Shown: positions 1 to 7,330 of the stretch, piece after piece
Layout: each line of letters opens with the position of its first letter
Numbering within the stretch: position 1 is the first letter of the stretch
Origin: Amoebophrya sp. A120
Taxonomy: Eukaryota; Protista; Dinoflagellata
DNA length: 7,330 nt
Assembly: GCA_905178155.1 (NCBI GenBank)
Contig: CAJINV010000068.1
Coordinates: forward strand, 6,011 to 13,340
Reading direction: 5' to 3'
The notes under the pieces: generated by a model
Seen by the model: only the letters and a program-made list of their open reading frames with translations
What the model was told of the DNA's origin: nothing
The model's database searches: none
Made by a program: the position numbers and the translations under genes

Positions 1-787
1 TGTCTGGCTGTCCGCACCCGGGCCCGCGCCTTGTTTGTCCGAACCTGCATGGTCCGCGACTTCCCCTCCTTTGCCCTCATCTTGCGAGGGAGCGCTCGGC
101 ACTTCAGCGCCTCCTTCTTGCTGTTTTGCTTCCTGCCCTTGCGACAACCCTAGGCACTCATCCAGGTACAAAGTGCGTTTCGTGCGGTTCATCTTCGGCC
201 AATCGCGGACAGGAGGGAATTTATACGTGTCCGCGCCGAACTCATAGACAGGCCACGTGGTGTAGCAGTTGTCACGTTGCGCGACGTTGACTATTTGCAG
301 TGGAACTGTATGCACCGGGAGTGATGCACCAACTGGCATGAAGTCCTTTTGGTGGCTCGGAAGTACTTCTTTGCGAACTTCGTATCCCAGGGCCTGCGCT
401 CCTTCTAGTGCTTCTGCCAGGCTTAGCACTATGCCGCGACCCTGCCTGAGTGGACCGCGGGCATTCGCCTGCAGCCTCTTGAAGTCAGAGAGCTCCACAC
501 CTACTTTCCGAACCCCATGGCTGTGCTGCGTGACAAGTTGCAGCAACGTGAGCGCGTTGTTGACATAAGCCAGAAATCTCCGCTCTTGTCGGCGAACTTC
601 TACCCTCAGACGTTCCATCTTCGTTTTGCACTGCGCGAACACATTCCCTGTGTTTCTCTCAACGCAGACTGTCGCTGACAAATCCGAGGACGCCCGGACC
701 TCATATACGGGCAGCCCCGGTGGCATCCTGCCTCGCCCCAAAGTGCGATCCTTGACAAAGCCCGCAACTCTAAGTGCACCCCTTTGC
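1..787 (-). CDS. Exon running off the window edge (QRGALRVAGFVKDR...KMERLRVEVRRQERRFLAYVNNALTLLQ...GPGADSQT)
   Basis: Minus frame is stop-free from 855 to base 1. It is absent from the ORF track because it has no stop in the window. The exon's 5' boundary (~782-790) is uncertain. Confidence 0.75.
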
Positions 788-3700
788 CTACCTAGCATGA
801 CAGACATGCTTTGAGTGCCCGGAAAATTTCTCATGCGCCGACTAGAAATGGCACTTCAACTGGAGTTGTTTTTTGCATTACAAATCATTTCCACTTTGAG
901 GATTTCCAACCTGAGGCTGTCATACTCGGTCTTCGCGTTTTTCATCCCGGACATATCGAAAGGAAAAACTCCCCCTCCCCATATCGAACAAAAGGCATGT
1001 TTCCGAAAATTTGCGTTGCTGATTTGACGTCACAAATCATATCTGTCTTGCAAGAAGACAAGGGCAAAAGCTTCGCCCCCATCATGGAAGCGATTTGCCA
1101 TGCTGTTGGGCCTAAAGGGCAGCCGTTTGCCATGCTGAACAATTAAACCGATACGCCCCTACATAGCCTGGGGATCTGGCCGCAGCGCATTCCTGCAATA
1201 CGAAGCTGATTTGTGTACACAAATCCAGCATGAGAAATTTCGTTTCGATATGGGGAGGGGGGATTTTTCCTCTCGATAGGACACGTCGCCGACGCTGAAC
1301 ATGATGCTGCCTTCTTCTGCACTGTTTTATGCATTGCAAAAGCATCGCACTAGTATAAATTGCAATACAAACTTCCTTAGCATGAGAAATGGAATTTGTC
1401 ATGCGGATTTGCCTTGATGAAAACATTTGTAATGCAAGACTTGCATTTATACGAGTACGATACTTTTGCACAGGATATGTTTAGGAGTGACGCGATTTCG
1501 CCTTTGATTGCTTCTGCATCCTCCGCGCGGGGTTTGCCCTTGGGACGCGACACCCCTCGTGTCCTGAGTAAAAACGTACCCACACCAGAGTCAAGATGGG
1601 GACTTTGCAACACAAGCCTAGACCTTTTGGAGGTCACGCATCACAAGTTGCAGCCCGTAGCGTAGTGCAGGTTCGCAAGGCCAGCTGCATCAGAAATCCA
1701 TCTGCTCATCCTGTTTACAGCAGTACAAATTACAAAACACGACTAAAAATGCCTCTCCTGGCGATGCGCATTACAAATGTTCCTGTCATTGCAAATCTGC
1801 ATGACAACTCTGGTGTGGGTACGTTTTTACTCAGGATACCTCGCAAGTCATACACCCTCCTTTCCGCTTCAGCGACGATCTTCGCGTAGACTTTCCCCTC
1901 TACTTTTCCCCGCTCGATCGCTTCTTTAACTAGCTTTTGCACCACCGCGACCTTTGTCTCCTTCAAACGCTGCGCGAATGCTTCTGGGGATACCAAAGTG
2001 AAAAATCCCCCCACCCCATACTCAAACTAGAGCTTCGCGATGCAGATTTGTGGTCACAAATCAGCTTTGTCATGCTAGAAGGGAAAAGATGCGGACTGTA
2101 GTGCTGGTTGGCGTGGGAAAGCCTTGCATCTTCAGCATGACAGGGGGCAGCTGGAAGTGGGAAGCAGCATGACAAATTGCCTGCAACCAAGGCCACAGGT
2201 GCGTCTCGTCTTGGCCTTCTAGCATTACAAGTCGATTTGTGTACTCAACAAATACAGCATCACAAATTTCGTTTTCGATATGGGGAGGGGGGATTTCTCC
2301 TTTTGATAGGGGAGAGGGGCTCCTCTTGCTGTAGTTTCGCGCCGGTTTCATCATGCTCCCCTTCAGCAGGTTCTTTTTCGCTCCTCTTCGTGTACGGTTC
2401 CATTTGCAGGCTGTCCGCGAAGAAAGGGATGCCGTCGATCTCAAATTGATCCATAATGGCTTTGTCTTCCGCTTCCGCGTCCGTGAGGGCAGGATTTCTT
2501 TTTTGCAGAGCATCCGCCGCAGACATAATTTTGTCAATCTTCTTCTCAAGATCTTCTTCATCTTCATCATCGCCTCCACCCTCTGCTAACGAGGACAGAG
2601 CTTCATACCGGTTGCGTATCTCCGTGGTCGGATCGAGGGACAAGCTCCGGCGTTTGTTCGCGGGCCTGCTGGTGCTTCGTCCCCGCCGTTTCGCGTGCCC
2701 CTGTCCACCCCGGGAGGTAGTTCTACTCCTTCTTGGCGCGCCGCCGCGGCCCTCATCCACCCGAGGGGACGAGGTAGCTCTACTCCTTCTTGTTCTTGGC
2801 GCATCTCCGCTGTGTGATCGTGCCCGATCGGGAGCTGCAGCAGGTTCCACAGCACCAGGACGGAGTCGCGACAGCCGCTCCGCAGCCTCCTGGCTCGGAC
2901 TTCTCTGCATCACAGAAAAGCCTGCGTGTTGTTCTCTCTTGACTTGCCTCACTTCTCCAGTAGCTTGCGCTTTCAACTTTTCCAGCGCTTTCCTTCTTTC
3001 ATCTATGGAGGCGCCGGGATCGAAATCGACAAAGTTGAAGTTGCAAGAATAAACAAATAATGGCTTAGGCTTTCCATGCATAAAATTGATGCTGATGAAG
3101 ACTTGGAAGCTGCCCAGTTTCGTTTGCATTTGCTCGTGCAAGCGGCGCATGACAAATTGAAATTTCGGCATCATCGAAATCCAGTTTGTGTGCTGTAAGG
3201 ATGACAAGACATGATCATGATCTTGTTTTGCCTTGCTACAACTTTTTTAGCAGCTCCATCTCTAACCCAAACAGGCTTACAGTCGGCCTCGCTTGTTGTT
3301 GCTGACACCCCTGCAAGACAGGCACCTTGCGCAGGAGCACCATTGCGTTTGATGATCTTATGCAGTCCATTCTTTTCCAACTTGACCTTTGTCGATTTCG
3401 GTTCTGACGCTTCCATACCCTCTTGCAACCGTGTACTGGTGGTCGGATTTGCCCTTCGCAGCAAGCTGTCCTCCGGGCCACCGGCCCCGTCCGTTTGTAA
3501 GTCAATAACTATGCGGCCAGTAGTTTTAGACATCAATGGATGGTCCTTTTCAGTGGCAGAGCTGCTCTCGAACCACGCAGGCACAGCAGTTTCCAGGGTC
3601 AGCGTTTGGGGCGAAATCCAATACTTCACGTCGCGGGCCATGCAGATCTGCTGCTTGATACGGTTGCGACGGCTTATTTGCAGCGCTGCAGCAGCTGCGC

Positions 3701-6700
3701 GTTGTGGTGCAACAACTTCCGATGTTCTACTTGTTGGTCGAGGTTGTGGCGGGGGAGCCGGCACGCTTGGACAACATTCGCCACAACCAGCCGCTCCACA
3801 AGAATGATCTTCCTTTTTCTGTCCGTACGCAGCGGCAAGCGATCCCAAACGACCAGCTCCGCCTCCAGCCGTGGCAGCTGCGCCGGGATGAAGTAGAGCC
3901 TTTTGCTTTGTCATCTCGAAGAAATCGCCATCCTTCGTAGCGCAAGAGTCCACGCTAGTACTACCTTGTGCGAAGTCATGCACTCCATAGAGCGGGCTCG
4001 CGATCTTGATCTTGTACCCTCCTAGTACGACGTCGGAGGAGGTACTACCGCCTGTAGTAACACGACGACCGGTATGGATTGTAAAAGTGTCTGGGTCTGG
4101 AAGTAGAATGCAACTTGTCATGCTAAATCTGAATCATGTAAAAAATCTGTGTTGCATGATTACCAAGAGCTGTCCACTTTTGACCTAGTCGAGAGGCAGT
4201 TTCTCATGCAGGATAGGCATGATAGAACTCTCCGAGAATCTGTCATGCTCTGTCCTACATACCAGACCTCAGGGGTCATGTACGATCTGCATGACAAGTC
4301 TGGCATTCTTCCAGAGGAGGACCCAGACATTTTTACACTTGATAACCCGTAGCTCCCCACCCAGCATGTTTTGCCGCCCAATTCGACGCCACGAAACGCA
4401 TCTGTATCAAACAAAAAAGCGCTAACCACGTTAACGGCCTTCTTACATTGCAAATATGCATGACAAATTTTTCCGAGCATGCATGCTCTGCATGACAAAT
4501 TCGGCCACGTTTTGTGACGCATTTCTGCATCACAAATTCCGTTAACGTTAGCACTTTTTTCTGTGATAATCTGGCACAGCACGCAAGGGTTCTTGCTGAC
4601 ATAGATTTTATTCTCGAAAAAAGAAGAAGTTGTTGCACTACTGACCACTGGTGGAAGTTGTTGTTGTGCTTCTTTATGAGCTGGTACAGCTTGTTTTTGG
4701 TGTAGTAGCTTCCACTCCATGAGATGAAGCAAATTCGTTTCCGCGTGTCGGCCTCTGAGAGTTTTGTCCGTCATACCCCCATATCAAATGTAAAAATGTC
4801 TGAGTCTGGAAGATTGCCAGGTTTGTCATGCACATTTTGCATGACTCCTGATGTCTGTGATGCATGCCCTAGCGTCACAGATTTTGTGAGGGCTTCCTGA
4901 TGCCTATACCGCATGACAAATGCTCTTTCCGAGTAGCAAAACTTGGACTCTCTTTGCTGCTCATGCAATACAGAATTTTTTGGAATCCAAAATCAGCATG
5001 ACAAGTTGGATTCTTCCAGACCCAGACATTTTTACATTTGATACCCCACGCTCCTGCTTGTCCACGTCCACGCGGACGAATTGAAGAGAAGCGACCTGTA
5101 TCAAATGCAAATGTGTCTGGGTCTGGAAATTTGTGATGCTGGGTGGCGTATCATGAGGAGGCCACAAGTGCTGGCGCAGCTAGCAGGACAAGTTTCTGAG
5201 CTTCTGGGTGTTCTTGCCTATTCTGCATGGCAAGCTGCGTTTCTGCGTGACAGAAGAGGAGGCTCTTGGGTAACGTGCATGACAGATGTAAGAGCCATAC
5301 CAGACAAGCATGACAAGCATCAACATGCATTCTTCCAGACCCAGAACTAAAAATATGCATTTCATAACCTTCTCCTGGATGAATCTCGCCACGAGGCTCT
5401 TTTTTGCCTTCCTGTCCTCGTCGTCCTCGGTTTCGGCTAAGAAAGCCTTCAACCCGTCCGACAAGGGTTCGACATCGAAGATTTCAGATATGACGGCGCA
5501 CTAGAAGTACCACCCTGCTCCCCCTCATTTTTTCTTTTCCACGCATGAAGAACAACAGCGAATTAATATACAAGAACAAAAGCACAAGCTGCACACGCGC
5601 AGCCTGTAACTGACAAGTTCTTCACGCGCCTCGCACAGAGGGACTGTAGTCCTAGTAGCCTTTTTGGGCTTCCGGAATAAAATCTGTCACGCAAACAATG
5701 AATAAGTACTACAAGGCAGCGCGACCGCGACCAGTGGATTTGGGAACTTGCACCATGACGAAGTCGAAGGTATGAGGGGGAGCAGGGGGACGAGTTGTGC
5801 ACTGTCATATGATAAGAGCTTAAAACCGGAAGAAGAAACGGATCAGCATCTCCACCATGATCTACTTATGCATTGCAAATATTATGTCTGCCTCCCTCTG
5901 GAAAATCTAAATTGTGGCTGTGCTGCTAAATTGATACTTAGGTACTTATGGATGACGATGAGTCTGGTGCTTTCCTTTCAACAGGTGCAGCTAAGCATGA
6001 CAAGTTCATTTGACGCCGTCTGATGCGTTGGGTATGCAACACAAGTTTTCAGAAAAGTAAACTAGACACGACATGCAAGACAAAGAACTACTCCACTTTT
6101 ATTGCAGACGACCCAGTAGTAGACGCATAAATGTATTTGCATTCGATACAGGAGCTTGACCAACAGTAGAAATAACACCTCCAACTCCGCGGCCTTGATT
6201 TGATGTATTTATTCCACGAGGACCTCTACCAGGAACAGTATCAAGAACAAAGCTTGCCTCCAAAACCGCTTTTAAACAAGCGCTGACCGCTTTTTTCGCT
6301 GTGTTCACGAACCGCTCATGTTCGTAACGATCGATCGGAACGCTTTCGAATGCTCCTGTCCGCTTTGTCGTCGCGTCGAAATCCCGCGCGTAGAAGGCGG
6401 TCTCCCGTAGCTGTTTAGTACGCCCCAGTTCTTCAAAGAAAACATCGCTCTCCTTGAAGGGTACCCGCGCTACACTCCCGGGAAGAAATACAGTCCGCAC
6501 CGGGGATGACGTGGCCATCGAGGACTTCTCTTTCTTGTAAGTACGGAACTTGGCTCTCAACAAGTCCCGACGGTCCTGCCAGGAGGGAGGGCGGGGGGGC
6601 GCGCCTGCTGAGCCTATGGACTGCAAATATTTATGTTGTCCGGGTCTGGGGTATTGTGATGTGGATTTTTGGACATTGTTTATGCGAACGCGTGGTCCTG

Positions 6701-7107
6701 AATTGGCGGCCAAGCATGTTGACCAAAAGTTTCATTTCAGTTGCTACGTGTTGCCTCTTCTGCATGGTATAATGCAAGCATCCATTCTGCATCTTCCATG
6801 ACAAAAAAAACAAAAAGGGCTTGATCGATGGGATGGAAATGGAATAATAATAAAAAGGTAAAAATACAAATAATAAACGAATGCATGTTGACAGACTTGA
6901 GAGTCATGCTCCAGCTGCTGGCACCAGAGAATTACGACTGACTACAAGCGTCCTTCTTGCACTCTTCCAAATGACCAATACATCATATTTGCAATGCGTA
7001 GAGCCGCCGGCGGTGCCTCCTCCTCGGTCCACACGCTTCTGTATCAGTAAGTTCGAGTTGAACGCGATAAGCAGTCGGCTGTTGTTGACATGATGTGGAG
7101 GGTTCAG
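1..7107 (-). CDS. Large multi-exon gene, partial at both ends (~1161 aa reconstructed from 14 exons), with a putative Zn-dependent cytidine/adenosine-deaminase-superfamily domain
   Basis: Model exons: 7107-7001, 6609-6149, 5861-5810, 5483-5367, 5093-5044, 4776-4569, 4399-4345, 4067-3418, 2998-2309, 1985-1839, 1554-1478, 1322-1279, 948-911, 787-1. They total 3483 nt with no stop. Removed lengths 391, 287, 326, 273, 267, 169, 277, 419, 323, 284, 155 and 330 nt each convert the upstream open frame into the downstream one. Junctions can slide within the 5-bp DRs, and the last intron is uncertain. Confidence 0.85.
789..931. mobile_element. Degenerate introner-like TIR element / intron
   Basis: Left arm TACCTAGCATGACAG (789) vs reverse complement of right arm GACCGAGTATGACAG (931). 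Motif variants at 795, 828 and 875. The DR is decayed (TTGCC/TTCGC). It contains the in-frame TGA at 858-856 that must be removed. Confidence 0.5.
911..948 (-). CDS. Micro-exon GMKNA(KTEYDSL)
   Basis: In frame after removal of element 954-1278. The 3' end is 911 if GT-AG intron 788-910 is used, or ~932 if the whole degenerate element is removed. Confidence 0.5.
954..1278. mobile_element. Introner/MITE family A, copy 1 (325 bp)
   Basis: ~35-bp TIR TATCGAAAGGAAAAACTCCCCCTCCCCATATCGAA vs TATCGAGAGGAAAAATCCCCCCTCCCCATATCGAA. Perfect DR GGACA at 949-953 and 1279-1283. Removing 330 nt gives FSVGDVS|GMKNA. Confidence 0.92.
1279..1322 (-). CDS. Exon SAEEGSIMFSVGDVS
   Basis: Open in the frame dictated by both flanking element excisions. 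Confidence 0.75.
1328..1477. mobile_element. Introner/MITE (150 bp)
   Basis: TIR TATGCATTGCAAAAGCATCGCACTAGTATAAA vs TATCCTGTGCAAAAGTATCGTACTCGTATAAA. Perfect DR TGTTT at 1323-1327 and 1478-1482. Removing 155 nt gives IASLLN|SAEEGS. Confidence 0.88.
1478..1554 (-). CDS. Exon VSRPKGKPRAEDAEAIKGEIASLLN
   Basis: Core of ORF 1377..1637. In frame with both neighbours after excision. Confidence 0.8.
1560..1838. mobile_element. Introner/MITE family B, copy 1 (279 bp)
   Basis: Perfect 30-bp inverted repeat 1562-1591 / 1807-1836 (TCCTGAGTAAAAACGTACCCACACCAGAGT). Perfect DR CCTCG at 1555-1559 and 1839-1843. The 284-nt removal can be read as GT-AG intron 1839->1556 and gives YDLRG|VSRPK. Confidence 0.95.
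1839..1985 (-). CDS. Exon EAFAQRLKETKVAVVQKLVKEAIERGKVEGKVYAKIVAEAERRVYDLRG
   Basis: Protein-like, helical-looking core of ORF 1730..2014. In frame with both neighbours. Confidence 0.85.
1991..2308. mobile_element. Introner/MITE family A, copy 2 (318 bp)
   Basis: TIR TACCAAAGTGAAAAATCCCCCCACCCCATA vs TATCAAAAGGAGAAATCCCCCCTCCCCATA. Perfect DR GGGGA at 1986-1990 and 2309-2313. The interior resembles 954-1278. Removing 323 nt gives EEPLSP|EAFAQ. Confidence 0.92.
2309..2998 (-). CDS. Exon: charged, low-complexity region (R/S-rich basic tract, then acidic GGGDDEDEED tract)
   Basis: Part of the 315-aa ORF 2260..3207 lying between two elements. Confidence 0.85.
2704..2810. repeat. Imperfect intra-exon tandem duplication (2 units, ~50 bp)
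   Basis: GAGGTAGTTCTACTCCTTCTTGGCGC (2714-2739) vs GAGGTAGCTCTACTCCTTCTTGTTCTTGGCGC (2771-2802), each preceded by TCCACCC. They encode APRRSRTTS / APRTRRSRATS. Confidence 0.75.
3004..3417. mobile_element. Introner/MITE (414 bp)
   Basis: ~40-47-bp TIR TATGGAGGCGCCGGGATCGAAATCGACAAAGTTGAAGTTG vs TATGGAAGCGTCAGAACCGAAATCGACAAAGGTCAAGTTG. Decayed DR TCATC/CCCTC. Removing 419 nt, or GT-AG intron 3418->3003 (416 nt), joins TRLQE to RRKALEK in frame. Confidence 0.85.
3418..4067 (-). CDS. Exon RRVTTGG...KIKIASPLYGVHDF...HSCGAAGCGECC...TTSTRLQE
   Basis: Core of the 316-aa ORF 3171..4121 between two elements. Confidence 0.85.
4073..4344. mobile_element. Introner/MITE family C, copy 1 (272 bp)
   Basis: TIR TATGGATTGTAAAAGTGTCTGGGTC vs TATCAAGTGTAAAAATGTCTGGGTC. 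DR ACCGG/ACCCG (4 of 5). Removing 277 nt gives GWGATG|RRVTT. Confidence 0.9.
4345..4399 (-). CDS. Exon RFVASNWAAKHAGWGATG
   Basis: In frame with both neighbours after excision. Confidence 0.78.
4405..4568. mobile_element. Introner/MITE (164 bp)
   Basis: TIR TATCAAACAAAAAAGCGCTAAC(CAC)GTTAACGG vs TATCACAGAAAAAAGTGCTAACGTTAACGG. Perfect DR ATCTG at 4400-4404 and 4569-4573. Removing 169 nt gives PCVLCQM|RFVAS. Confidence 0.92.
4569..4776 (-). CDS. Exon with deaminase zinc-binding motifs: GRHAETNLL...KIYVSKNPCVLC
   Basis: HAE at 4747-4739 and PCVLC at 4588-4574 with a 50-aa spacer. This is the HxE...PCxxC signature of the cytidine-deaminase-like superfamily. Confidence 0.8.
4782..5043. mobile_element. 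Introner/MITE family C, copy 2 (262 bp)
   Basis: 32-bp TIR TATCAAATGTAAAAATGTCTG(A/G)GTCTGGAAGA with one mismatch. Perfect DR CCCCA at 4777-4781 and 5044-5048. Removing 267 nt gives DKQERG|GMTDK. Confidence 0.95.
5044..5093 (-). CDS. Exon ASLQFVRVDVDKQERG
   Basis: In frame with both neighbours after excision. Confidence 0.8.
5099..5366. mobile_element. Introner/MITE family C, copy 3 (268 bp)
   Basis: TIR TATCAAATGCAAATGTG-TCTGGGTCTGGAA vs TATGAAATGCATATTTTTAGTTCTGGGTCTGGAA. DR ACCTG/ACCTT. The 273-nt removal reads as GT-AG intron 5368->5096 and gives IQEKV|ASLQF. Confidence 0.9.
5367..5483 (-). CDS. Exon IFDVEPLSDGLKAFLAETEDDEDRKAKKSLVARFIQEKV
   Basis: Frame of ORF 5180..5464 extended upstream to the element boundary. 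Confidence 0.82.
5489..5809. mobile_element. Introner/MITE (321 bp)
   Basis: TIR TATGACGGCGCAC...CCCTGCTCCCCCTCAT vs TATGACAGTGCAC...CCCTGCTCCCCCTCAT, with a perfect 16-bp inner stem 5513-5528 / 5772-5787. Decayed DR TCAGA/TGATA. Removing 326 nt is in frame, and so is GT-AG intron 5802->5501 (302 nt). Confidence 0.8.
5810..5861 (-). CDS. Exon DHGGDADPFLLPVLSSY
   Basis: Open in the frame required by both flanking excisions. Confidence 0.65.
5867..6148. mobile_element. Diverged introner/MITE, family-C-like (282 bp)
   Basis: TIR TATGCATTGCAAATA-TTATG vs TATCGAATGCAAATACATTTATG. GCATGACAA at 5995. The DR is essentially lost (CTACT/CAGGA). Removing 287 or 284 nt joins ORF 6099..6713 to the next exon in frame. 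Confidence 0.62.
6149..6609 (-). CDS. Exon AGAPPRPPSWQDRRDLLRAKF...ERFVNTAKKAVSACLKAVLE...VGQAP
   Basis: Core of the 204-aa ORF 6099..6713 between two elements. Confidence 0.85.
6615..7000. mobile_element. Introner/MITE, family-C-like (386 bp)
   Basis: TIR TATGGACTGCAAATAT vs TACGCATTGCAAATAT. Perfect DR GAGCC at 6610-6614 and 7001-7005. The 391-nt removal can be read as GC-AG intron 7004->6614 and gives GTAGGS|AGAPP. Confidence 0.88.
7001..7107 (-). CDS. Exon LNPPHHVNNSRLLIAFNSNLLIQKRVDRGGGTAGGS
   Basis: Core of ORF 6904..7131. In frame with the downstream exon after excision. Confidence 0.8.
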
Positions 7108-7330
7108 TATCCTGAGTAAAAACGTACCCACACCAGAGTCAAGATGGGAAATCTGCTAGACAAATCGGCAAGCTTTGGGAGTTGTGCATGACAAGTTTCC
7201 GTCTGTAGTATAGTGGTGCATAGCAAGGCAAGCCGCATGAGAAAGCCAATTTCTCATCCTGTTTACAGCATTACAAATGCCAAATCACGATTGGAAATAC
7301 CTCTCATGAGGATGCGCATTACAAATGTTC
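7108..7330. mobile_element. Introner/MITE family B, copy 2 (truncated by window edge)
   Basis: Collinear with 1560-1782 at offset 5548, and the first 41 nt match at 40 positions. The preceding 5-mer TTCAG (7103-7107) is the candidate DR. Confidence 0.92.

What the first reader, a model, noticed from the sequence alone, without database searches (positions are those of the whole stretch)
949..7005. Most introns cannot be GT-AG, implying structure-guided, motif-independent removal
Seen: sliding the junction through the DR on the coding strand gives these best end pairs. 954-1278 GT..AT; 1328-1477 AT..AC; 1560-1838 GT..AG; 1991-2308 neither GT nor AG (DR TCCCC); 4073-4344 GT..CG; 4405-4568 AT..AG; 4782-5043 GT..GG; 5099-5366 GT..AG; 5867-6148 GT..TA or TA..AG; 6615-7000 GC..AG. 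Elements 3004-3417 and 5489-5809 reach GT..AG only with shifted boundaries. The constant features are the terminal stem and the duplicated 5-mer. Inference: the TIR stem brings the exons together for a modified spliceosome or a non-spliceosomal endonuclease/ligase. Precise DNA-level excision cannot be excluded from sequence alone.
Basis: partly seen in the sequence, partly recalled or inferred. Interest (0 to 1): 0.88.

Follow-up and report, generated by a model that had tools for sequence, protein, structure and literature searches.

The report
Hairpin-guided transposon introns without GT-AG
One gene, likely from a parasitic dinoflagellate, carries twelve transposon-like hairpin inserts; contigs from runs that are likely RNA lack five of them to the base although four of these have no normal GT-AG ends, an oddity already described in Amoebophrya, and the cuts likely sit at fixed distances from the hairpin.

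Summary
Observation confirmed, kind already published. Twelve TAT..ATA inverted-repeat elements with 5-nt duplications interrupt one minus-strand gene; removing element+5 nt gives a 914-codon frame. RNA-like contigs bridge 5 of 12 junctions, each element+5; four cannot be GT-AG in any placement, and one skips an in-frame GT..AG 3 nt away. A DNA-like run keeps the elements, so DNA excision is disfavoured. The anatomy matches Amoebophrya A120-type introner elements (PMC7789003: TAT + 7 nt + AAA arms, 3-5 nt repeats, 65% non-canonical introns). Added here: mismatched duplications share one cut register, exon|N-TAT...ATA-NNNN|exon (chance 0.11, so suggestive only). In 234 related elements GT-AG is reachable in 15 and both orientations occur; ordinary introns there start GTA(T), so the arm mimics the host donor except at +1. 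'Motif-independent' is therefore overstated. Best mechanism: a modified spliceosome using the stem as a ruler (0.5), over a Euglena-like separate machine (0.35). This scan noted similar introns on other DNA.

The parts
859..7104 (-). Host gene: 13 exon pieces that join to one open frame of 914 codons when each element plus 5 nt is removed; protein of no known family; runs in from beyond the right end of the window
   Evidence: no Pfam family above cut-off for 5 frames; no homologue for the 6150-6608 exon
950..1279 (-). Element 954-1278 plus 5 nt; predicted intron, CT..TC in the shared register; perfect duplication
   Evidence: frame only, not bridged
1324..1478 (-). Element 1328-1477 plus 5 nt; predicted intron, AT..AC
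   Evidence: frame only
1556..1839 (-). Element 1560-1838 plus 5 nt; predicted intron, GT..AG in the shared register
   Evidence: an X3 contig piece stops at 1839 and goes on for 359 letters not shown
1987..2309 (-). Element 1991-2308 plus 5 nt; predicted intron, CT..CC; no in-frame GT/GC..AG pair within 30 nt of either end
   Evidence: frame only
3000..3418 (-). Element 3004-3417 plus 5 nt; intron missing from an RNA-like contig; GT..TG or GG..AT; an in-frame AG 3 nt upstream is not used
   Evidence: X3 record 11 pieces 3419-3657 and 2314-2999 adjoin in the record (table 8); placements; X1 contig 2280-4099 holds it unbroken
4069..4345 (-). Element 4073-4344 plus 5 nt; predicted intron, TT..GG; inverted relative of the 4782 element
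   Evidence: (I1); frame only
4401..4569 (-). Element 4405-4568 plus 5 nt; predicted intron, TT..GA
   Evidence: X3 piece stops at 4569 with only 9 further letters
4778..5044 (-). Element 4782-5043 plus 5 nt; intron missing from an RNA-like contig (267 nt); none of 6 placements is GT-AG; very high-copy family
   Evidence: loose end before 5044 equals window 4747-4776; piece ends at 4776
5095..5367 (-). Element 5099-5366 plus 5 nt; intron missing from an RNA-like contig (273 nt); TT..GG in the shared register, GT..AG if slid by 1
   Evidence: joint 5093-5367 in X3
5485..5810 (-). Element 5489-5809 plus 5 nt; intron missing from RNA-like contigs (326 nt); AT..TG or TA..GA
   Evidence: joint 5483-5810 in X3 and X6
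5863..6149 (-). Element 5867-6148 plus 5 nt; intron missing from RNA-like contigs (287 nt); GT..TA or TA..AG; duplication decayed to 1 of 5 matches yet 5 nt are still removed
   Evidence: joint 5861-6149 in X3, X6, X8; X1 contig 5774-7132 holds it unbroken
6611..7001 (-). Element 6615-7000 plus 5 nt; predicted intron, CT..CT in the shared register, GC..AG if slid by 3
   Evidence: frame only
7108..7330 (.). Start of a further element of the 1560 family, cut by the window end
   Evidence: 78% over 224 nt (D1); an X3 contig leaves the window sequence at 7107
770..925 (-). Half of another element family (772-924); GT at 925 and an in-frame AG at 770-771 would make a 156-nt GT-AG intron that removes the stop at 856-858; untested
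   Evidence: 88% to L078 2246-2412; stop position

Best explanation
These are transposon-like inserts with inverted-repeat ends and a 5-base target duplication that are missing, with exactly one copy of the duplication, from contigs of likely RNA runs, and they are likely removed from the pre-mRNA by a modified spliceosome that would use the predicted terminal stem as a ruler, cutting one base before TAT and four bases after ATA. Shown: the anatomy; removal of element+5 nt at 5 of 12 junctions; ends that cannot be GT-AG at 4 of those 5; retention in DNA-like contigs. Inferred: origin as non-autonomous MITE-like transposons (5-nt staggered insertion); one fixed register exon|N-TAT...ATA-NNNN|exon; the stem forming in RNA; the machinery. 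In this model the arm supplies +2 U, +3 A, +4 U of the host's own donor (GUAU), the +1 base and the last two bases come from the target site and are free, the stem replaces AG scanning, and 1 + 4 = 5 makes any insertion in either orientation scarless.
For: Removal length element+5 at all 5 bridged junctions. Allowed cuts {3,4}, {4,5}, {4,5}, {1-5}, {0-5} share only position 4. At 3004 an in-frame GT..AG is passed over; at 5867 5 nt are removed though the duplication has decayed, so repeat homology is not what sets the cut. In 234 strand-called relatives: arms TAT + 7 variable + AAA on both sides, GT-AG reachable in 15, 7 at register 4 against about 6 expected from the donor and acceptor counts; all 10 families of 3 or more members lie in both orientations. 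In an RPB1 gene (L026) four elements give gap-free protein alignments only at +5 beside four ordinary GT-AG introns. Predicted ordinary introns without inverted ends start GTA in 45 of 62 and GTAT in 23 of 62, with G at +5 in only 12 (background GTAT 36 of 760). All 9 predominant A120 non-canonical motifs in Table S4 of PMC7789003 begin N-T. A120 keeps U2, U4, U5, U6, PRP8, U2AF; U1 RNA was not detected. A spliceosome adapted to MITE-derived non-GT-AG introns has precedent in Fritillaria.
Against: The shared register could be chance: 146 of 1296 independent combinations would also share one (0.11), and PMC7789003 describes the sites as variable relative to the hairpin. No preference at +1, -2 or -1 is seen, whereas the spliceosome's core normally reads these bases (established knowledge, recalled). 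No branch-point signal was found in the 3' arm by inspection. TAT may be fixed by the transposase and match the host donor by coincidence. Having a spliceosome does not discriminate, since 35% of introns are canonical. The stem is not predicted to close at the ends for 1328 and 5867 (pair probability 0) and only weakly for 3004, 4073, 4405. 'RNA' is the tool's guess for X3, X6, X8, which come from one study; 7 of 12 junctions are unbridged. The 234-element and donor statistics come from a related assembly with predicted strands and predicted introns, not from the window's own genome.
Confidence: 0.5

Rival explanations
1. Same elements and same RNA-level removal, but by a separate, non-spliceosomal nuclease/ligase or self-contained machine that recognises the UAU/AUA-closed stem and cuts at fixed spacers, as proposed for euglenid nonconventional introns.
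For: Free +1, -2 and -1 bases and both orientations; a nearby AG ignored; fixed spacers beside a paired motif are the Euglena rule, 3 and 5-6 nt there (PMC12501133); euglenid introns leave as circles, not lariats (review PMC11282704); U1 RNA not detected in A25/A120.
Against: The arm reads as the host donor at +2 to +4; A25 with different arms (TTA) also has T at +2 in its top motifs; no candidate enzyme is named in the papers read; the Euglena CDG/CHG motif is absent and a purine bias at the downstream exon start did not hold up.
Confidence: 0.35
2. RNA-level removal by a relaxed spliceosome with variable register: each intron uses whichever placement looks most canonical (for instance GT..AG at 5099, GC..AG at 6615), the stem only bringing the ends close.
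For: PMC7789003 calls the sites variable; GT-AG is reachable in 15 of 234 on the sense strand against 6 on the antisense strand; register overlap has chance 0.11.
Against: 3004 skips a usable GT..AG; 5489 and 5867 exclude cuts 0-3; removal is always exactly +5.
Confidence: 0.1
3. The elements are excised precisely from DNA (as in programmed rearrangement) in some stage or nucleus, and the contigs that lack them are DNA or transcripts of excised DNA.
For: The kind of runs X3, X6, X8 is only guessed; the anatomy is that of cut-and-paste transposons; contigs drop rare variants (tool text).
Against: X1 contigs of depth 41-47 run without a difference through 3004, 5867 and 6615, which a common empty allele would have broken; X3 covers exons only and patchily, as RNA does; PMC7789003 treated these as RNA-seq-supported introns.
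Confidence: 0.05

Closest known systems
Introner elements (IEs) among the non-canonical introns of Amoebophrya sp. A120 (Farhat et al. 2021, PMC7789003; read: abstract, passages, sections 10, 11, 12, 16, part 3 of 5 of the supplement; figures not seen)
   Same: Arms start TAT, then seven variable bases, then three or more A; 3-5 nt direct repeats at the borders (5 bp in their Fig. S19 legend); many families; about 240 nt; most ends non-GT-AG; top end motifs begin N-T; hairpin and modified-spliceosome idea.
   Different: The paper's text describes variable sites with no clear signature; here the informative junctions share one register and the arm matches the ordinary donor at +2 to +4. That the window is from A120 itself was not tested.
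Euglenid nonconventional introns (Nomura et al. 2025, PMC12501133: abstract, passages, Discussion; review PMC11282704, section 6)
   Same: MITE-like inverted ends, repeats at the borders, non-GT-AG ends, cut at fixed spacers from a paired motif.
   Different: Euglena: N3-CDG...CHG-N5-6|R; here N1-TAT...ATA-N4 with no firm purine rule; unrelated lineage; circles shown there, untested here.
Fritillaria borealis MITE-derived non-canonical introns (bioRxiv 10.1101/2025.08.15.670264, abstract only; review PMC11282704, section 6)
   Same: Transposon-derived introns with inverted ends and duplications, most not GT-AG, handled by an adapted U2 spliceosome.
   Different: Preferred ends (AG-AC, AG-AT) exist there; here +1, -2, -1 look free.
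Introners from TIR DNA transposons in general (PMC9860276 and PMC12130899, passages)
   Same: Intron gain by TIR/TSD elements; A120 is named as rich in them.
   Different: Most introners carry or co-opt GT/GC and AG; the transposase for these TAT elements is not identified.

Membership tests
Amoebophrya A120-type introner element | Inverted repeat at the two intron ends starting TAT, seven less conserved bases, then at least three A | tested here: met
   Window arms (most, not all, keep the A run: 3004 and 5489 deviate); position counts for 234 relatives: TAT 227 and 226 of 234 at the two ends, A at positions 11-13 in 203-226; definition
Amoebophrya A120-type introner element | Direct repeat of 3-5 nt at the exon/intron borders | tested here: met
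   50 of 60 positions match in the window; 201 of 284 perfect at length 5, at most 3 at lengths 3, 4, 6-9
Amoebophrya A120-type introner element | Repeated: copies of the same families elsewhere in the genome | tested here: met
   X1 depth over elements up to thousands of times the exon depth; 9 of 12 interiors have relatives at 68-95% in loci L001-L130, none for 5489, 5867, 6615
Amoebophrya A120-type introner element | Absent from transcripts, with non-GT-AG ends | tested here: met
   5 of 12 bridged in RNA-like contigs, 4 of 5 non-canonical in every placement; RNA status is the tool's guess
Amoebophrya A120-type introner element | Host is Amoebophrya | tested here: inconclusive
   No homologue for two window frames. 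RPB1 from the related assembly is nearest to one unnamed protein (73%) and then to dinoflagellates and Perkinsus (43-49%): dinoflagellate lineage, genus not shown
Canonical U2-type GT/GC-AG intron | GT or GC donor with AG acceptor at the junction used | tested here: not met
   Impossible for 3004, 4782, 5489, 5867; reachable for 3 of 12 only
U12-type AT-AC intron | Extended U12 donor and branch motifs, minor snRNAs | tested here: not met
   Only 1328 can read AT..AC, 7 of 234 at register 4, set by the target site; the extended motifs (recalled) are not in the ends shown; minor snRNAs reported absent in A25/A120
Euglenid nonconventional intron | CDG at +4 to +6 paired with CHG 5-6 nt before the exon, purine at exon start | tested here: not met
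   Ends show TAT/ATA with 1 and 4 nt spacers; purine bias weak and not reproduced in the long-ORF subset
Euglenid nonconventional intron | Excised as full-length circle without lariat | not testable with these tools
   Needs intron-product sequencing
MITE (non-autonomous TIR transposon) | Terminal inverted repeats, target duplication, no coding capacity, many copies | tested here: met
MITE (non-autonomous TIR transposon) | A cognate autonomous element or transposase | not tested
   No genome held; no transposase family among 86 long frames of the loci, which was not a directed search

The most novel reading that the evidence does not exclude
Amoebophrya-type cells run a second, spliceosome-independent mRNA splicing system that reads only a UAU/AUA-closed stem and cuts 1 nt before and 4 nt after it, matched to the 5-nt footprint of the transposase, so that any insertion in either orientation becomes a scarless intron: a convergent twin of the Euglena system in an unrelated lineage.
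Probability: 0.3. Interest if true: 0.85.

Novelty: already known. Interest (0 to 1): 0.42.

Why it matters
The kind of intron is published, but how it is removed is still open. A fixed register turns 'no clear splicing signature' into a testable code (N-UAU...AUA-NNNN), predicts exactly where lariat or circle junctions should map, explains why insertions in either orientation are harmless even in RPB1, and would let gene finders annotate these genomes. If the spliceosome does it, it has given up +1 G and the terminal AG together; if another machine does it, there is a second mRNA splicing system outside euglenids.

Tried and rejected
No genome is held for the window, so no snRNA, PRP8 or transposase inventory. 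No listed holder is on record as RNA. Raw RNA run X12 laid only 75 reads, all on repeats, none on exons: no verdict. X7 bridged nothing. Joints were swamped by repeats (15 of 791 shown), so the 3004 junction is read from contig pieces, and absence of exon-exon joints in X1 could not be read from that table. No RNA cover of 1-735 or of the 6615 junction: no evidence either way. Pfam on 5 window frames: two weak hits under cut-off; homologue searches for two frames empty; no Atlas result for 1-855; no Rfam match. Purine bias at duplication position 5: 108 of 164, p 0.033 among 11 positions, 42 of 70 (p 0.47) in the long-ORF subset: rejected. Direction of mismatches between duplication copies and asymmetry of the two arms gave no signal for the register. 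A +1/-1 pairing rule was not pursued: these bases are neighbours in the coding sequence, so the table is confounded. Protein conservation could not add register data: the one mismatched element in RPB1 lies inside an ordinary intron. Rows dropped: 301 detected elements, 281 kept after an end filter, 234 strand-called (98 by long frames, 136 by a codon model that agreed in 80 of 83 cross-validated calls); the detector found 10 of 12 window elements exactly, misplaced 5489, missed 5867, and gave 5 hits in shuffled loci against 98 real. Of 138 predicted ordinary introns 65 passed the low-GC/no-motif filter and 62 had no inverted ends.

Full report
What is there. The window holds twelve elements of 150-414 nt at the coordinates given, each closed by inverted arms that read TAT at both ends (three single-base deviations) and flanked by a 5-nt direct repeat. 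The flanks match at 50 of 60 positions; no shuffled pairing out of 100,000 reaches that. On the minus strand, removing each element plus 5 nt leaves one open frame of 914 codons, against 309-324 for six of the eight other lengths tried; +2 (926) and +8 (699) also stay long because the frame only sees length modulo 3. The protein has no family or homologue that I could find.

Removal is seen. Runs that the tool guesses to be RNA cover exons and skip elements. Joints 5093-5367 (273 nt; X3), 5483-5810 (326 nt; X3, X6) and 5861-6149 (287 nt; X3, X6, X8) are listed, and the loose end before 5044 is window 4747-4776 (267 nt). In one search one X3 contig joins 3419 to 2999 (419 nt), read from adjoining record coordinates. 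All five equal element + 5. Four of the five cannot be GT-AG in any equivalent placement: 3004 GT..TG or GG..AT, 4782 six non-canonical options, 5489 AT..TG or TA..GA, 5867 GT..TA or TA..AG; 5099 can be GT..AG. At 3004 an in-frame GT..AG lies 3 nt away and is not used. These runs come from one study and at most two samples, depth 3-8, and seven junctions are unbridged. Run X1, of unrecorded kind but continuous across elements and flanks, holds 2280-4099, 5265-5801 and 5774-7132 without a difference at depth 41-47, so the elements stay in what behaves as DNA; contigs drop rare variants, so rare or stage-specific excision is not excluded.

The register. Where the two copies of the repeat differ, the contig shows which copy each base came from. 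Counting along the transcript, the cut may lie after position 3 or 4 (3004), 4 or 5 (5489), 4 or 5 (5867), 1 to 5 (5099); only 4 is shared. Independent random cuts would share a position in 146 of 1296 cases (0.11), so this is suggestive, not proven. In that register every intron reads exon|N-TA(T)...ATA-NNNN|exon: T at +2 and A at +3 in 12 of 12, +1 being G 4, C 3, T 3, A 2 times, and ten different acceptor pairs. At 5867 the repeat has decayed to 1 match in 5 and 5 nt are still removed, so repeat pairing does not set the cut. Folding predicts the terminal pair (+2 with -5) with probability 0.6-0.98 for 7 of 12, 0.15-0.33 for 3 and 0 for 2.

Relatives. The duplication is 5 nt: 201 of 284 perfect at length 5, at most 3 at lengths 3, 4 and 6-9. 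Of 281 kept elements 234 got a strand. Both arms read TAT, seven variable bases, AAA. GT-AG is reachable at some cut in 15 of 234 (antisense control 6, a slight excess that counts against complete indifference); at register 4 it is 7, about the 6 expected from 78 GT and 19 AG. All ten families of three or more members occur in both orientations to the transcript, one with a 9:26 skew. L026 is an RPB1 gene nearest to dinoflagellate-lineage proteins; four elements in it give gap-free alignments only at +5, none can be slid to GT-AG (worked out from the repeats printed there), and four ordinary GT-AG introns sit beside them. A simple gene model that used no donor motif beyond GT predicted ordinary introns starting GTA in 45 of 62 and GTAT in 23 of 62 (background 36 of 760), with no preference for G at +5 and no ATA at -7 to -5 among the GTAT ones. 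These are predictions in a relative, but they mean that the arm, read in register 4, equals the host's commonest donor except for +1.

Mechanism. I commit to a modified spliceosome that uses the stem as a ruler (0.5): the arm gives +2 to +4 of the donor, the stem replaces AG scanning, and spacers of 1 and 4 sum to the 5-nt duplication, so any insertion is scarless. The steps from stem to machinery are inferred. A separate Euglena-like machine is close behind (0.35), because +1, -2 and -1 look free and no branch signal is evident. Variable-register splicing (0.1) and DNA excision (0.05) fit worse.

What is known. Farhat et al. 2021 (PMC7789003; abstract, passages, sections 10-12 and 16, part 3 of the supplement) describe these elements in Amoebophrya: 65% non-canonical introns in A120, arms starting TAT with seven variable bases and three A, 3-5 nt repeats, hairpins that join exon borders, U1 RNA not detected, an altered spliceosome proposed. 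Their text calls the sites variable, yet all nine predominant A120 motifs in Table S4 begin N-T and eight end A-N, as register 4 would give if strands were partly unresolved (my inference; aligner placement could also explain it). Reviews and surveys repeat this without a mechanism (PMC11282704 section 6; passages of PMC11453091, PMC12130899, PMC9860276, PMC12005148). Euglena has a fixed-spacer code with a different motif (PMC12501133); Fritillaria has an adapted spliceosome (bioRxiv abstract). Six literature searches showed no paper stating a fixed register or the splicing products for Amoebophrya; subscription papers are not searched, and Fig. 3 and Figs. S19-S25 of the 2021 paper are pictures I could not see and may already show the register. 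That the window is Amoebophrya rests on anatomy and on the relative's RPB1, not on a direct match. This scan has no notes on this genome but has noted similar hairpin-bounded non-canonical introns on other DNA, unchecked here.

Verdict. Real, correctly described, already known as a kind. The register and donor mimicry are a modest, testable addition to an open question. Interest 0.42.

Noticed in passing
window 770-925: Half of an element family (88% to L078 2246-2412) that has lost one arm. A GT at 925 and an in-frame AG at 770-771 would make a 156-nt ordinary intron that removes the stop at 856-858 and joins the 285-codon frame 1-855; alternatively the gene ends here or the arm opens a much longer element. 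A broken hairpin intron rescued by canonical sites would tie the two systems together.
   Followed up: partly
window 1-855 (minus): 285-codon open frame, no Pfam family, no homologue. In X1 the stretch 1-735 has two to five times single-copy depth with variant contigs, so it is likely multi-copy.
   Followed up: partly
   Followed up: partly
element interiors, e.g. window 4449-4469, 4987-5007: Different families share an internal motif around GCATGACA, in inverted arrangement near both ends (D2-D6): candidate transposase or other protein binding sites.
   Followed up: no
L026 3001-3972 and 4517-4756: In RPB1, one element of 972 nt, about four times the usual length, with perfect arms and duplication; another element nested inside an ordinary GT-AG intron.
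   Followed up: partly
loci L001-L130: One family with unequal arms (35 members, type of window 4073) lies 9:26 with respect to the transcript, the only clear skew among ten families; may be chance or a preferred donor arm.
   Followed up: no
loci L001-L080: Predicted ordinary introns have a minimal donor GTA(T/C) without G at +5 and mostly CAG acceptors, which fits a missing or divergent U1.
   Followed up: partly
run X12 on window 4099-4163 and 4782-4815: An RNA run with the same species label holds an element of this family at about 90-95% likeness but no window exon: the family also exists in a diverged strain.
   Followed up: no
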